Positions 3,774 through 40,470 of a stretch of 64,000 nt of DNA are shown here, piece after piece. The stretch is from Escherichia coli (GTDB taxonomy: Bacteria; Pseudomonadota; Gammaproteobacteria; Enterobacterales; Enterobacteriaceae). The notes below the pieces were generated by a model. That model saw only the letters and a list, made by a program, of their open reading frames with translations, made no database searches and was not told where the DNA came from. Both the position numbers and the translations under genes were made by a program. The first letter of the stretch is position 1; the number at the start of each line of letters is the position of its first letter. The stretch lies in assembly GCF_003790525.1 (NCBI RefSeq), contig NZ_CP033635.1, one strand, 5' to 3'.

Positions 3774-4475
3774 TCAGAACGTTTTCTCGTTGGGTTGCCA
3801 GCGACAGAAATCAGAGTTTGCCACCAACAGTAATTGCGAACCTTCGGGCGCTTCCAGCCATGCCACGCTGACATCAACAGAAGAGCGGCTCTGGCGGCGC
3901 TCGATATGCGCTATCGCCTGCGAATCTAAATCAGGTTTAATGGTTTGCCCTTCGCAGGTGGTCACAGTCTGCTCCATCGCATGCCAGCGCCCCTGGCGCA
4001 GCACGACTCTCCCCTGACGTAAGGCATCGCTAATCTGGCGGATCTGATCAGCACGATAACGGTATAAATCGATTTGGTCGTTAGAAAGCTGCTGCTTTTC
4101 CCCATCGGATTCACGTTGCATAAAGCTCAGATCGCCGCGATCGTCAAAACGCGCGCGAATGTTCACCGGCGGTTTGCTGTAAACATTGATATTGATGAGC
4201 GTGAGGTTATCGCCCTGCCAGCGATACTCTCGCGTTGTGGTATCGCCACTGCGCCACGGGCTAAACACGGCAAGCAGATGCACATTATCGCCGCTGTCTT
4301 TTCGCCAGATGCGTACCGCGCCCTGGTCTTCAGCAAATCCACTGGCGGTAAAGGGAGGAAGTGAAGAGTTGTGACTACAGGCAGTGAGAAACAGAGCGCC
4401 AGCCAGCATCAATGATCGACGCCAGAAAGACAAAAGGGGTGAAACCACCCCTTCGTTAAAACTGTTCACTGCCAC
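3774..4475 (-). CDS. yjaH: Conserved protein of unknown function YjaH (DUF1481 family), probable lipoprotein
   Basis: 233 aa ORF with N-terminal signal/lipobox-like sequence (LFLTAC); K-12 gene order. Confidence 0.8.
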   Translation of the reverse strand: MAVNSFNEGVVSPLLSFWRRSLMLAGALFLTACSHNSSLPPFTASGFAEDQGAVRIWRKDSGDNVHLLAVFSPWRSGDTTTREYRWQGDNLTLININVYSKPPVNIRARFDDRGDLSFMQRESDGEKQQLSNDQIDLYRYRADQIRQISDALRQGRVVLRQGRWHAMEQTVTTCEGQTIKPDLDSQAIAHIERRQSRSSVDVSVAWLEAPEGSQLLLVANSDFCRWQPNEKTF

Positions 4476-8703: not shown

Positions 8704-8763
8704 GTTCTGCGCTGTTAACGCGTAATTTACATTCAACGCCCCGTTTGTGGGGCTAATTTCTTG

Positions 8764-11458
<2,695 letters not shown>

Positions 11459-17500: not shown

Positions 17501-18765
17501 AGTACCGGGTGTTCGCGGATAACTTCGTCCAGGATATCCCAAACGACAGCTTCTTCGCGCTCAACCATTTTCTTCGCAGCTTTAATGGTGGTAGCAAGAC
17601 CACGCAGTTCCAGCTTGCCGTAGATGAACGGTTTGAACAGCTCCAGTGCCATTTTCTTCGGCAGACCGCACTGATGCAGACGCAGGTATGGACCTACGGT
17701 GATTACAGAACGACCGGAGTAGTCAACACGCTTACCGAGCAGGTTCTGACGGAAACGACCCTGTTTACCTTTGATCATGTCGGCCAAAGATTTCAGAGGA
17801 CGCTTGTTAGAACCGGTGATTGCACGACCGCGACGACCGTTATCCAGCAGGGCGTCTACCGCTTCCTGCAGCATACGTTTTTCGTTACGTACGATGATGT
17901 CCGGCGCAGCCAGATCCAGCAGACGTTTCAGACGGTTGTTACGGTTAATGACGCGACGATACAGATCGTTCAGGTCAGAAGTCGCGAAACGACCACCATC
18001 CAGCGGAACCAGCGGACGCAGATCTGGCGGCAGTACCGGCAGAACGGTCAGGATCATCCACTCTGGTTTGTTACCAGACTGAACGAACGCTTCCAGCAGT
18101 TTGATACGCTTGGTCAGCTTTTTACGCTTGGTTTCGGAGTTGGTTTCGTTCAGCTCTTCACGCAGCTGTTCGCACTCTTGCTCCAGATCCATGCTCTTCA
18201 GCAGGGCCTGGATTGCTTCCGCACCCATCTTCGCGTCGAATTCGTCACCGAACTCTTCCAGCGCGTCCAGATACTGCTCTTCAGTCAGGATCTGCTGACG
18301 CTCCAGGTTGGTCATACCGCCTTCGATAACCACATAGGATTCGAAGTACAGTACGCGTTCGATATCGCGCAGCGGCATATCGAGCAGCAGGCCGATACGG
18401 GACGGCAGCGATTTCAGGAACCAGATGTGCGCAGTCGGGGAAGCCAGTTCGATGTGGCCCATACGCTCACGGCGTACTTTAGTCTGGGTCACTTCAACAC
18501 CGCACTTCTCACAGATGACGCCACGGTGTTTCAGGCGCTTGTACTTACCGCACAGGCACTCGTAATCTTTTACCGGCCCAAAGATACGGGCGCAGAAAAG
18601 GCCGTCACGTTCTGGTTTGAACGTACGGTAGTTGATGGTTTCCGGCTTTTTAACTTCACCGAAAGACCATGAACGGATCATGTCTGGCGAAGCCAGAGCA
18701 ATTTTGATCGCATCAAACTCTTCGGTTTTAGTCTGCGCTTTCAGAAACTTTAATAAATCTTTCAC
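14542..18765 (-). CDS. rpoC: DNA-directed RNA polymerase subunit beta'
   Basis: 1407 aa ORF; [33 protein letters not shown]..., zinc-binding Cys motifs and NADFDGD catalytic motif. Confidence 0.99.
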
Positions 18766-28164: not shown

Positions 28165-28240
28165 TGGTGCTGATAGGCAGATTCGAACTGCCGACCTCAC
28201 CCTTACCAAGGGTGCGCTCTACCAACTGAGCTATATCAGC
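28165..28240 (-). tRNA. thrT: tRNA-Thr
   Basis: Reverse complement GCTGATATAGCTCAGTTGGTAGAGCGCACCCTTGGTAAGGGTGAGGTCGGCAGTTCGAATCTGCCTATCAGCACCA; cloverleaf with encoded CCA. Confidence 0.95.
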
Positions 28241-28246
28241 ACATCT

Positions 28247-28321
<75 letters not shown>

Positions 28322-28437
28322 ATCCTGGAACTCGGCTACCTGATTTTCATTCTGCACTGAATATCGAGAGAAGCTCTCTTTATTCGAGCCGGTAAGCGAA
28401 CTTATCGTCTCGGGCTACGCCATCGCGTGGCCGAAAT

Positions 28438-28522
<85 letters not shown>

Positions 28523-28530
28523 GGACTTGA

Positions 28531-28606
<76 letters not shown>

Positions 28607-30912: not shown

Positions 30913-31937
30913 GAAATCGTCTCCACTGCGCTAACTTCACCTGATGCACCAATAAAGCGAACTTCAGGCTCAAGCCAGACATTAAATTTTTCACCCACTT
31001 TTTGTCTTACATGATGTGCCAGTTGCACCACATCTTCGCTTTTTGCATTGTCTTCATTAATGAGGACTAACGCCTGTTGACGGTGCACCGCAGCCCCACC
31101 CATTTGCATCCCTTTTAGCTGGCACTGATCGATAAGCCAACCTGCTGCCAGTTTTACTGAACCATCCGCCTGGGGATAATTTGGTGCTGTTGGAAATTGT
31201 GCCAGTAATGCTTTAGCCGTTTCGGCAGATACAACAGGGTTTTTGAAGAAACTACCGGCATTGCCATTCACTTTTGGATCAGGGAGTTTGGTGGTGCGCA
31301 TATGACATACCGCATTAAATACTTGCTGTGGCGTTACGGTTGTAGGATCCAGACGAGTTAAGTCACCATACGTTAGTACAGGTTGCCACTCTTTTGGCAG
31401 ACGCAGACCTACGGCTACAATGGCGAAGCGGTCCTGGTATTCATGTTTAAAAATACTGTCGCGATAGCCAAAACGGCACTCTTTGGCAGTTAAGCGCACT
31501 TGCTTGCCTGTCGCCAGTTCAACACAGTCAACATAAGCGCAAACTCGCTGTAATTCTACGCCATAAGCACCAATATTCTGGATAGGTGATGAGCCGACAC
31601 AACCAGGAATTAATGCCAGATTTTCCAGACCAGGCATACCTTCCTGCAAAGTGTATTTTACCAGGCGATGCCAGTTTTCTCCGGCTCCTACATGTAAATA
31701 CCACGCATCAGGTTCATCATGAATTTCGATACCTTTGATCCGGTTGATGATCACCGTACCGCGATAGTCTTCCAGAAAAAGTACATTACTTCCTTCACCC
31801 AGAATAAGAACGGATTGTCCTTTTGCGGTTGCATGCTGCCAGGCATTGAGTAGTTGTTGTTCGTCTTCGGCACATACAATGTGCTGAGCATTATGATCAA
31901 TGCCAAATGTGTTCCAGGGTTTTAAGGAGTGGTTCAT
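30909..31937 (-). CDS. murB: UDP-N-acetylenolpyruvoylglucosamine reductase MurB
   Basis: 342 aa ORF; overlaps birA by 4 nt as in K-12. Confidence 0.96.
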
Positions 31938-32028
31938 AGCTGCTTTCCTGATGCAAAAACGAGGCTAGTTTACCGTATCTGTGGGGGGATGGCTTGTAGT
32001 TATGACGACAGGGAGTGTTTGTAGAAAC

Positions 32029-32057
32029 GCAAAAAGGCCCAGTCTTCCGACTGGGCC
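32029..32057 (-). terminator. rrnB operon terminator (single hairpin; T2-like flanks with T1-like stem)
   Basis: Minus-strand AGAAGGCCCAGTCGGAAGACTGGGCCTTTTTGCGTTT immediately 3' of 5S rRNA. Confidence 0.8.
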
Positions 32058-32071
32058 TTCTGCTTAATTTG

Positions 32072-32191
32072 ATGCCTGGCAGTTCCCTACTCTCGCATGG
32101 GGAGACCCCACACTACCATCGGCGCTACGGCGTTTCACTTCTGAGTTCGGCATGGGGTCAGGTGGGACCACCGCGCTAAGGCCGCCAGGCA
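32072..32191 (-). rRNA. rrfB: 5S ribosomal RNA
   Basis: 120-nt reverse complement of TGCCTGGCGGCC...GGGAACTGCCAGGCAT, matching E. coli 5S as I recall it. Confidence 0.97.
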
Positions 32192-32283: not shown

Positions 32284-35187
<2,904 letters not shown>

Positions 35188-35380
35188 TCACAACCCGAAG
35201 ATGTTTCTTTCGATTCGTCATCGTGTTGCGAAAATTTGAGAGACTCACGAACAACTTTCGTTGTTCAGTGTTTCAATTTTCAGCTTGATCCAGATTTTTA
35301 AAGAGCAAATATCTCAAACGTCACCCGAAGATGAGTTTTGAGATATTAAGGCAGGTGACTTTCACTCACAAACCAGCAAG

Positions 35381-35456
35381 TGGCGTCCCCTAGGGGATTC
35401 GAACCCCTGTTACCGCCGTGAAAGGGCGGTGTCCTGGGCCTCTAGACGAAGGGGAC
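35381..35456 (-). tRNA. gltT: tRNA-Glu (spacer tRNA of rrnB)
   Basis: Reverse complement GTCCCCTTCGTCTAGAGGCCCAGGACACCGCCCTTTCACGGCGGTAACAGGGGTTCGAATCCCCTAGGGGACGCCA. Confidence 0.96.
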
Positions 35457-35541
35457 GTATCAGTCTGCTTCGCAAGACGCCTTGCTTTTCACTTTCTATC
35501 AGACAATCTGTGTGAGCACTTCAAAGAACGCTTCTTTAAGG

Positions 35542-37083
<1,542 letters not shown>

Positions 37084-37258
37084 AAAAGTTTGATGCTCAA
37101 AGAATTAAACTTCGTAATGAATTACGTGTTCACTCTTGAGACTTGGTATTCATTTTTCGTCTTGCGACGTTAAGAATCCGTATCTTCGAGTGCCCACACA
37201 GATTGTCTGATAAATTGTTAAAGAGCAGTGCCGCTTCGCTTTTTCTCAGCGGCGCGGG

Positions 37259-40102: not shown

Positions 40103-40345
40103 TGTAAAGCATCCACAATAGAAGAAGGATGCCGCAGGTTTCATCAATATTACGCGATGATGAGAACCAGATGCGACGTTAGCCGGCAGGTCTTCGGGCT
40201 TGGAGGGGTATCTAAGATACTAAGAGATGATGACTTCCCACCGGATGGCAGTGTCCGCATAACGCAATCATCGCACCTTTCCTTACCGCTGCGCGTCAGC
40301 TCCAGATTCGCACTGGATTCCCTATTAACTCACAGGACCGGCAAG
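40103..40345 (-). promoter_or_regulatory. Cobalamin (B12) riboswitch / btuB leader
   Basis: Reverse complement contains GCCGGTCCTGTGAGTTAATAGGGAATCCAGTGCGAATCTGGAGCTGACGCGCAGCGGTAAGGAAAGGTGCGATGATTGCGTTATGCGGACACTGCCATCCGGTGGGAAGTCATCATCTCTTAGTATCTTAGATACCCCTCCAAGCCCGAAGACCTGCCGGC with the B12-box. Confidence 0.88.
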
Positions 40346-40470
40346 TGGATGCTACAGGTTGTAACAAGTTACTGTCCAGACGTAGCTCACAAATAGGAAT
40401 TCATCAAGATCTGGACATCTGATGAGCAATCCCTACAATCGCCGCGTACTTTAATTTTTCAGGATACATC

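What the first reader, a model, noticed from the sequence alone, without database searches (positions are those of the whole stretch)
35457..35541. Short 16S-tRNA-Glu spacer variant in rrnB
The 16S to tRNA-Glu spacer is 85 nt (total 16S-23S spacer 354 nt). I recall the K-12 rrnB spacer carrying an extra insertion of roughly 86 nt (16S to gltT about 171 nt). The short form is typical of other Glu-type rrn operons, which points to inter-operon gene conversion and to a non-K-12 strain background.
Basis: partly seen in the sequence, partly recalled or inferred. Interest (0 to 1): 0.2.

Follow-up and report, generated by a model that had tools for sequence, protein, structure and literature searches.

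The report
Ordinary short rrnB 16S–tRNA-Glu spacer
The 85-base gap between the 16S rRNA gene and the tRNA-Glu gene in this E. coli rrnB operon is real, but it is the common form of this spacer in the species; the laboratory strain K-12 is the one carrying a less common, long-described 106-base extra block.

Summary
The window carries E. coli rrnB on the minus strand (btuB-murI-16S-tRNA-Glu-23S-5S-murB). The 16S-to-tRNA-Glu spacer is 35457-35541, 85 nt, and the whole 16S-23S spacer is 354 nt. The long form is not a plain insertion. A 106-nt block replaces the last 20 nt of the short spacer, which I take to be the 'spacer loop' (rsl) of Harvey et al. 1988.

In 5,426 complete E. coli genomes, the short junction occurs 17,572 times in 99% of genomes. 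The 106-nt block occurs 4,008 times in 51% of genomes. In evenly spaced samples of 60, murI-linked rrnB is short in 41, long in 11 and Ile/Ala-type in 7. clpB-linked rrnG is long in 29.

The closest genome, strain SBF22 (99.98% identical over 42 kb), has the short spacer at all four Glu-type operons. So the strain is not K-12, but nothing shows that this rrnB was converted from a long form. The spacer supplies the 3' strand of the 16S RNase III processing stem plus a short linker to the tRNA. This is ordinary and already known.

The parts
35542..37083 (-). 16S rRNA gene of rrnB (rrsB)
   Evidence: Rfam SSU_rRNA_bacteria, 1578 bits, full length. murI lies upstream in the SBF22 annotation.
35457..35541 (-). 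16S-to-tRNA-Glu transcribed spacer, 85 nt, short form lacking the 106-nt block (the finding)
   Evidence: Boundaries. Same block structure as K-12 rrnC and rrnE. Identical to SBF22 rrnB and rrnE.
35464..35537 (-). Part of the spacer predicted to pair with the 16S leader (3' strand of the 16S RNase III processing stem). The near-continuous core is spacer nt 6-47, window 35495-35536.
   Evidence: RNAduplex gives 59 bp at -74.3 kcal/mol, against -34.5 +/- 4.3 for 200 shuffled spacers, the best of which reached -50.0. Leader position -115 pairs opposite spacer position +31, close to the RNase III sites I recall at -115 and +33.
37171..37250 (-). Leader segment upstream of 16S that pairs with the spacer (5' strand of the processing stem)
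   Evidence: Same duplex prediction.
35457..35476 (-). 20-nt block CTTGCGAAGCAGACTGATAC directly 5' of the tRNA. This is the position where long-form operons carry the 106-nt block instead.
   Evidence: Alignments A1, A2 and A4.
35381..35456 (-). tRNA-Glu (anticodon UUC), gltT
   Evidence: ARAGORN, Rfam tRNA. Identical in every operon aligned.
35188..35380 (-). tRNA-Glu-to-23S spacer, 193 nt, of the rrnC/rrnE type. It includes the Rfam StyR-44 match at 35195-35303.
32284..35187 (-). 23S rRNA gene (rrlB)
   Evidence: Rfam LSU_rRNA_bacteria, 2866 bits.
32074..32189 (-). 5S rRNA gene (rrfB)
   Evidence: Rfam 5S_rRNA.

Best explanation
This is the standard short form of the Glu-type 16S-23S spacer, lacking the 106-nt block, sitting at the rrnB locus of a non-K-12 E. 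coli. The spacer is transcribed as part of the rrnB precursor. About its first 60-70 nt pair with the leader upstream of 16S and form the long processing stem that RNase III cuts to release pre-16S. The last 20 nt are a short linker ending at the RNase P site at the tRNA-Glu 5' end. The 86-nt difference from K-12 MG1655 exists because K-12 carries, at rrnB and rrnG, a polymorphic 106-nt block in place of those 20 nt. That block occurs in only about half of E. coli genomes, mostly as a single copy at rrnG. It appears to move between Glu-type operons by short-patch homologous exchange, using the conserved stem sequence and the invariant tRNA gene as flanking homology. The lineage of this window has no copy at any Glu-type operon, so the short rrnB needs no special event to explain it. 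Shown here: the lengths, the block structure, the population frequencies and the state of the sister genome. Inferred: the processing roles (fold prediction plus textbook knowledge) and the exchange mechanism.
For: MG1655 has 171/171/85/85 nt at rrnB/G/C/E. The 106-for-20 nt replacement, and a window spacer of the rrnC/E type along its whole length, are shown. The 106-nt block is in 2,791 of 5,426 genomes, 4,008 places, median 1 per genome. The short junction is at 17,572 places in 5,367 genomes, median 3. Evenly spaced samples of 60 give, at murI-linked rrnB, 41 short, 11 long and 7 Ile/Ala, and at clpB-linked rrnG, 29 long and 29 short. SBF22 has 85 nt at rrnB, rrnE, rrnC and rrnG. The window's spacer region is identical to SBF22 rrnB and rrnE. 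Natural isolate 2018-02-2CC has a short rrnB that keeps the K-12-rrnB-specific markers downstream of the tRNA, so the exchanged tract lies between the 16S end and the tRNA. The leader-spacer duplex is 59 bp at -74.3 kcal/mol, against -34.5 +/- 4.3 for shuffles. Experimental rates of rrn gene conversion in E. coli are reported in PMC8022953.
Against: The population fractions at rrnB and rrnG come from samples of 60, roughly +/-12 percentage points, not a full tabulation, and the collection is enriched for laboratory K-12 derivatives and clinical clones. I could not establish which state is ancestral. The outgroup scan used one exact 19-mer against one genome per species, and draft assemblies often lack rrn spacers. 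RNase III and RNase P cleavage were not tested; they rest on predicted pairing and on E. coli rRNA processing as I recall it (Young and Steitz 1978). The short spacer alone shows no unusual folding (z = +0.62), as expected for one strand of an intermolecular stem.
Confidence: 0.9

Rival explanations
1. One reading: rrnB originally carried the long spacer, as in K-12, and in this strain it was overwritten by a short spacer from rrnC or rrnE through inter-operon gene conversion. The title of Harvey et al. 1988 reports such a loss for a K-12 subline.
For: rrn operons do exchange spacer sequence. The window's spacer region is identical to SBF22 rrnE, and lineage-specific SNPs are shared among operons. 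[quoted passage not shown] The title of Harvey et al. 1988 (seen in a reference list) shows that the block can be lost from rrnB.
Against: No Glu-type operon in the closest genome carries the long block. About two thirds of sampled genomes are short at rrnB, and 49% of genomes lack the block entirely. The block's usual location is rrnG, not rrnB. Nothing in the sequence marks a recent tract boundary.
Confidence: 0.07
2. Assembly artefact: the seven near-identical rrn operons were collapsed or mis-phased, so a spacer from another operon was placed at rrnB.
For: rrn repeats of about 5 kb are a classic source of mis-assembly. One genome in the collection shows the 106-nt block at 7 places, which may be such an artefact.
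Against: An independent complete genome (SBF22) has the same rrnB over 2,351 nt at 100% identity. 41 of 60 sampled complete genomes have the same short arrangement linked to murI. All four Glu-type operons of the sister genome are short, so mis-phasing would not change the result.
Confidence: 0.02

Closest known systems
E. coli K-12 MG1655 rrnC and rrnE 16S-gltU/gltV spacers (short Glu-type spacer)
   Same: Same length (85 nt; whole spacer 354 nt), same block order and the same 20-nt linker before the tRNA. Only 1-2 substitutions within the 85 nt (A1 columns 41 and 67).
   Different: They sit at different chromosomal loci. The window has a few lineage-specific SNPs (A2 columns 41, 328 and 431) that are shared with its sister genome's other operons.
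E. coli K-12 MG1655 rrnB and rrnG long spacers carrying the 106-nt spacer-loop block (Harvey, Hill, Squires and Squires 1988, J Bacteriol 170:1235; title seen, content recalled from memory)
   Same: Same locus in the case of rrnB. The first 65 nt are nearly the same (2 substitutions against K-12 rrnB, A1 columns 35 and 41), and so are the tRNA-Glu gene and most of the tRNA-23S spacer.
   Different: K-12 has 106 nt (two predicted hairpins, -31 kcal/mol, z = -2.8) where the window has 20 nt. K-12 rrnB also differs in a small block just 3' of the tRNA (GTCGCCGACC against GTCACCTGCC).
Exchange of spacer regions between rrn operons by gene conversion (Harvey and Hill 1990, Genetics 125:683; measured in PMC8022953)
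   Same: The mosaic distribution of spacer blocks among operons and strains matches this process. Examples are the 106-nt block at rrnG or rrnB, the 9-nt-shorter tRNA-23S variant at K-12 rrnG but at SBF22 rrnC, and Ile/Ala spacers at rrnB in about 12% of genomes.
   Different: No specific conversion event can be assigned to the window's rrnB.

Membership tests
rrnB operon of E. coli (locus identity) | rRNA operon flanked by btuB-murI upstream and murB-birA-coaA, thrU-tyrU-glyT-thrT and tufB downstream | tested here: met
   Cobalamin riboswitch at 40168-40357 (-). The Thr/Tyr/Gly/Thr tRNA cluster at 28165-28606 (-). The window is 99.979% identical to the annotated SBF22 region carrying these genes and is collinear with MG1655 rrnB.
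Glu-type 16S-23S spacer, short form | A single tRNA-Glu(UUC) gene between 16S and 23S | tested here: met
Glu-type 16S-23S spacer, short form | 85-nt 16S-to-tRNA spacer with the 20-nt linker CTTGCGAAGCAGACTGATAC in place of the 106-nt block | tested here: met
   Alignments A1 and A2. A 54-nt junction probe finds 17,572 places in 5,367 genomes.
Glu-type 16S-23S spacer, short form | The spacer's 5' part is complementary to the 16S leader (RNase III processing stem) | tested here: met
   59-bp duplex at -74.3 kcal/mol, against -34.5 +/- 4.3 for shuffles. This is predicted pairing only.
Glu-type 16S-23S spacer, short form | Cleavage by RNase III in the stem and by RNase P at the tRNA 5' end | not testable with these tools
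   Needs RNA end-mapping. The claim rests on established E. coli rRNA processing as I recall it.
Long spacer carrying the 106-nt spacer-loop block (K-12 rrnB/rrnG type) | Presence of the 106-nt block TTACGCGTTGGGAGTGAGGCTGAAGAG...AATTTTCGT directly 5' of tRNA-Glu | tested here: not met
   The block is absent from the window and from all four Glu-type operons of the sister genome.
Product of a recent inter-operon gene conversion at this locus | A tract in rrnB matching another operon of the same genome, bounded by locus-specific markers, with the alternative state in close relatives | tested here: inconclusive
   The rrnB spacer region equals rrnE in SBF22, and lineage SNPs are shared across operons, so homogenisation occurs. 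No relative with a long rrnB and no tract boundary was found for this lineage.

The most novel reading that the evidence does not exclude
The 106-nt block could be a recently acquired functional RNA module that spreads among Glu-type operons by conversion, for example one that changes 16S 3'-end or tRNA-Glu maturation, or yields a stable small RNA. It is nearly invariant, at 99% identity or more in 2,775 of 2,791 genomes, and folds better than shuffles. On that reading, its complete absence from this strain's lineage would mark a real physiological difference and not neutral length variation.
Probability: 0.04. Interest if true: 0.3.

Novelty: already known. Interest (0 to 1): 0.05.

Why it matters
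It matters very little beyond bookkeeping. The result shows that K-12 is not a good reference for the normal rrnB spacer: the short form is the species-wide default. Spacer length at a given rrn locus is therefore a weak marker of strain background. It bears on spacer-length ribotyping and on annotating rrn operons, but it raises no new biological question.

Tried and rejected
1. I tried to read Harvey et al. 1988 (PMC210897) and Harvey and Hill 1990 (PMC1204094). Neither is held. Only their titles are cited, and what I say of their content is from memory.

2. I scanned one genome per species (GTDB representatives) for the block's hairpin core GCTTTCTATTAATGAAAGC. There were 3 hits, all in unrelated organisms (Nitrospina, Metamycoplasmataceae, Paenibacillus), which I take as chance matches. 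None was in any Escherichia, Salmonella or other enterobacterial representative. This fits an origin within E. coli, but it is weak evidence: the match had to be exact, only one genome per species was searched, and draft assemblies often lack these spacers.

3. I looked for a mobile-element origin of the block. There was no match in phages. The only 'plasmid' match is a 1.4-Mb E. coli record that is evidently chromosomal. The idea is rejected for lack of evidence.

4. Rfam has no family covering the block or the short spacer. Only tRNA and StyR-44 match, both downstream.

5. I tested whether a relA1 K-12 strain has lost the block from rrnB, as the 1988 title says. The MC4100 assembly still has 171 nt at rrnB, so these data could not reproduce the loss.

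6. I considered that K-12 rrnB is a simple patch copied from its own rrnG. The block itself is identical in the two operons, but nearby markers (A1 columns 41, 65-66 and 75) are not rrnG-like. A single recent tract from the present rrnG does not fully explain K-12 rrnB.

Full report
**What is in the window**

Rfam and ARAGORN find a complete rRNA operon on the minus strand:

| Feature | Coordinates |
|---|---|
| 16S | 35542-37083 |
| tRNA-Glu(UUC) | 35381-35456 |
| 23S | 32284-35187 |
| 5S | 32074-32189 |

The raw sequence confirms the boundaries. The 16S 3' end ...GGATCACCTCCTTA ends at 35542, and the tRNA starts GTCCCCTTCG at 35456. The 16S-to-tRNA spacer is therefore 35457-35541, 85 nt. The full 16S-23S spacer is 35188-35541, 354 nt.

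The operon is rrnB:
- The btuB cobalamin riboswitch lies upstream.
- The thrU-tyrU-glyT-thrT cluster lies downstream.
- The window is 99.979% identical (9 mismatches in 42,351 nt) to an annotated stretch of E. coli strain SBF22. That stretch reads btuB-murI-16S-tRNA-Glu-23S-5S-murB-birA-coaA.
- Against MG1655 the same region is about 98% identical, so the strain is E. coli but not K-12.

**Comparison with K-12**

The RefSeq annotation of MG1655 gives these 16S-to-tRNA-Glu spacers:

| Operon | Spacer |
|---|---|
| rrnB | 171 nt |
| rrnG | 171 nt |
| rrnC | 85 nt |
| rrnE | 85 nt |

The alignment (A1) refines the picture. The long form is not a clean 86-nt insertion. A 106-nt block (L001:5267-5372) replaces the last 20 nt of the short spacer (CTTGCGAAGCAGACTGATAC, window 35457-35476). 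The first part of the block is a diverged counterpart of that 20-mer. The 106-for-20 figure matches my memory of the 'ribosomal spacer loop' (rsl) of Harvey, Hill, Squires and Squires 1988. I saw that paper's title in a reference list but could not read it.

Along its whole length the window's spacer is of the rrnC/rrnE type. This includes the small block just 3' of the tRNA (GTCACCTGCC, where K-12 rrnB and rrnG have GTCGCCGACC).

**How common each form is**

The collection holds 5,426 complete E. coli genomes.
- The 106-nt block is found in 2,791 genomes (51%), at 4,008 places, with a median of one per genome that has it. It is 99% identical or more in 2,775 of them.
- A 54-nt probe across the short junction finds 17,572 places in 5,367 genomes (99%), median three per genome.
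- About 81% of all Glu-type spacers are therefore short.

To tie the state to a locus, I used queries running from a unique flank through 16S into the spacer, and read 60 records evenly spaced down the ranking:

| Locus | Short Glu | Long | Ile/Ala-type | Truncated |
|---|---|---|---|---|
| murI-linked rrnB | 41 | 11 | 7 | 1 |
| clpB-linked rrnG | 29 | 29 | 1 | 1 |

By name, at least three of the 11 long records at rrnB are K-12 laboratory derivatives (MG1655, an O16:H48 strain, C600). The usual home of the block is therefore rrnG. The long rrnB of K-12 is the minority state, and the window's short rrnB is the majority state.

**The source lineage**

In SBF22 I located the other Glu-type operons by their flanks:
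- rrnE next to purH and metA
- rrnC next to yieP and hdfR
- rrnG next to clpB and kgtP

All have an 85-nt spacer. The window's spacer region is identical to SBF22 rrnB and rrnE. It differs from SBF22 rrnG at 2 positions. It differs from SBF22 rrnC at a few positions plus a 9-nt-shorter block near 23S (A2).

Two substitutions that distinguish this lineage from K-12 are shared among several of its operons (A2 column 41 A and column 328 C). This is the signature of concerted evolution. So homogenisation between operons does occur here, as in all E. coli (measured rates in PMC8022953). But no long copy exists at any of the four Glu-type operons in this lineage, and nothing marks a conversion that created the short rrnB.

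**Where the exchange happens**

The natural isolate 2018-02-2CC has a short rrnB that still carries the K-12-rrnB-specific markers downstream of the tRNA (A4). The segment that differs between short and long rrnB alleles is thus confined to the interval between the 16S end and the tRNA. It is flanked by conserved stem sequence on one side and the invariant tRNA gene on the other. That geometry is what short-patch homologous exchange would need.

K-12 rrnB is not a simple copy of its present rrnG, because nearby markers differ. I could not determine polarity rigorously. A scan of one genome per species for the block's 19-nt hairpin core found only three chance hits in unrelated bacteria. The block has no counterpart in phages or genuine plasmids. 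This is compatible with an origin inside E. coli, but it is weak evidence.

**What the spacer does**

Folding the 177-nt leader upstream of 16S against the spacer gives a 59-bp duplex of -74.3 kcal/mol. Shuffled spacers give -34.5 +/- 4.3 kcal/mol, with the best at -50.0. Spacer nt 6-47 form an almost continuous helix with leader positions -89 to -131. Leader -115 lies opposite spacer +31, close to the RNase III sites I recall at -115 and +33. This is the canonical 16S processing stem.

The variable block (spacer nt 66-85) lies beyond the continuous core of that stem, though the predicted outer pairs reach into it as far as spacer nt 77. It ends at the tRNA 5' end, where RNase P cuts. The pairing is a prediction, and the cleavages are inferred from established knowledge.

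On its own the short spacer does not fold unusually well (z = +0.62). The 106-nt block folds into two hairpins with z = -2.8. Rfam has no family for either.

**Verdict**

The observation and the K-12 recollection are correct. The inference of a non-K-12 background is correct, but it follows far more strongly from the flanking sequence. The suggestion that the short form points to a conversion at this locus is not supported, because the short form is the species norm and the only form at the Glu-type operons of this lineage. The length polymorphism, its 106-nt block and spacer exchange between rrn operons have been described since the late 1980s. The finding is ordinary and already known.

**Seen in passing**

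The 3' end of this rrnB also differs from K-12. The 168-nt stretch holding terminator T1 and the rrB small-RNA gene (PMC8144298) is absent, leaving a single terminator before murB (A3).

Noticed in passing
window 31937-32073 (minus strand), between 5S and murB: This rrnB has one terminator hairpin (GGCCCAGTCGGAAGACTGGGCC followed by a T run) between 5S and murB. K-12 MG1655 has 168 extra nt here (L001 about 8745-8912), carrying terminator T1 and the rrB small-RNA gene described in PMC8144298. This rrnB therefore lacks the dual terminator and rrB. The remaining hairpin resembles the K-12 T1 stem but sits in the T2 flanks (A3).
   Followed up: partly
L012:4864-5047 (SBF22 rrnC) compared with L004 (K-12 rrnG): The 9-nt-shorter variant of the tRNA-Glu-to-23S spacer (184 nt...CAACTC---TGAAGTG...) is at rrnG in K-12 but at rrnC in SBF22. 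This shows that spacer blocks are reassorted among operons between strains (A2).
   Followed up: no
murI-linked rrnB in other genomes (hits H83-H89): About 12% of sampled complete genomes (7 of 60, including an O25:H4 strain) carry an Ile/Ala-type spacer at rrnB instead of a Glu-type one. The whole spacer class has been swapped at this locus.
   Followed up: no
NZ_CP010132.1, strain C10 (hit H96): The 106-nt block is found at 7 places in this genome, as if all seven operons carried it. This may be an assembly artefact in which one rrn consensus was pasted into every copy, or it may be a real extreme of homogenisation.
   Followed up: no
window 35195-35303 (minus strand): Rfam StyR-44 (RF01830) matches at 119.9 bits inside the tRNA-Glu-to-23S spacer. 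The same match occurs in K-12 rrnB, so it is a generic feature of this spacer and not a separate gene.
   Followed up: partly
L017:20528-20698 (MC4100 rrnB): The relA1 K-12 derivative MC4100 (assembly NZ_CM168053.1) still has the 171-nt long spacer at rrnB. The title of Harvey et al. 1988 reports loss of the spacer loop from rrnB in the relA1 subline. The region may have been replaced during strain construction, or the loss may affect only part of that subline.
   Followed up: partly
window 40168-40357 (minus strand) and 28165-28606 (minus strand): The cobalamin riboswitch upstream of btuB and the thrU-tyrU-glyT-thrT tRNA cluster upstream of tufB are both at their usual positions.
   Followed up: no
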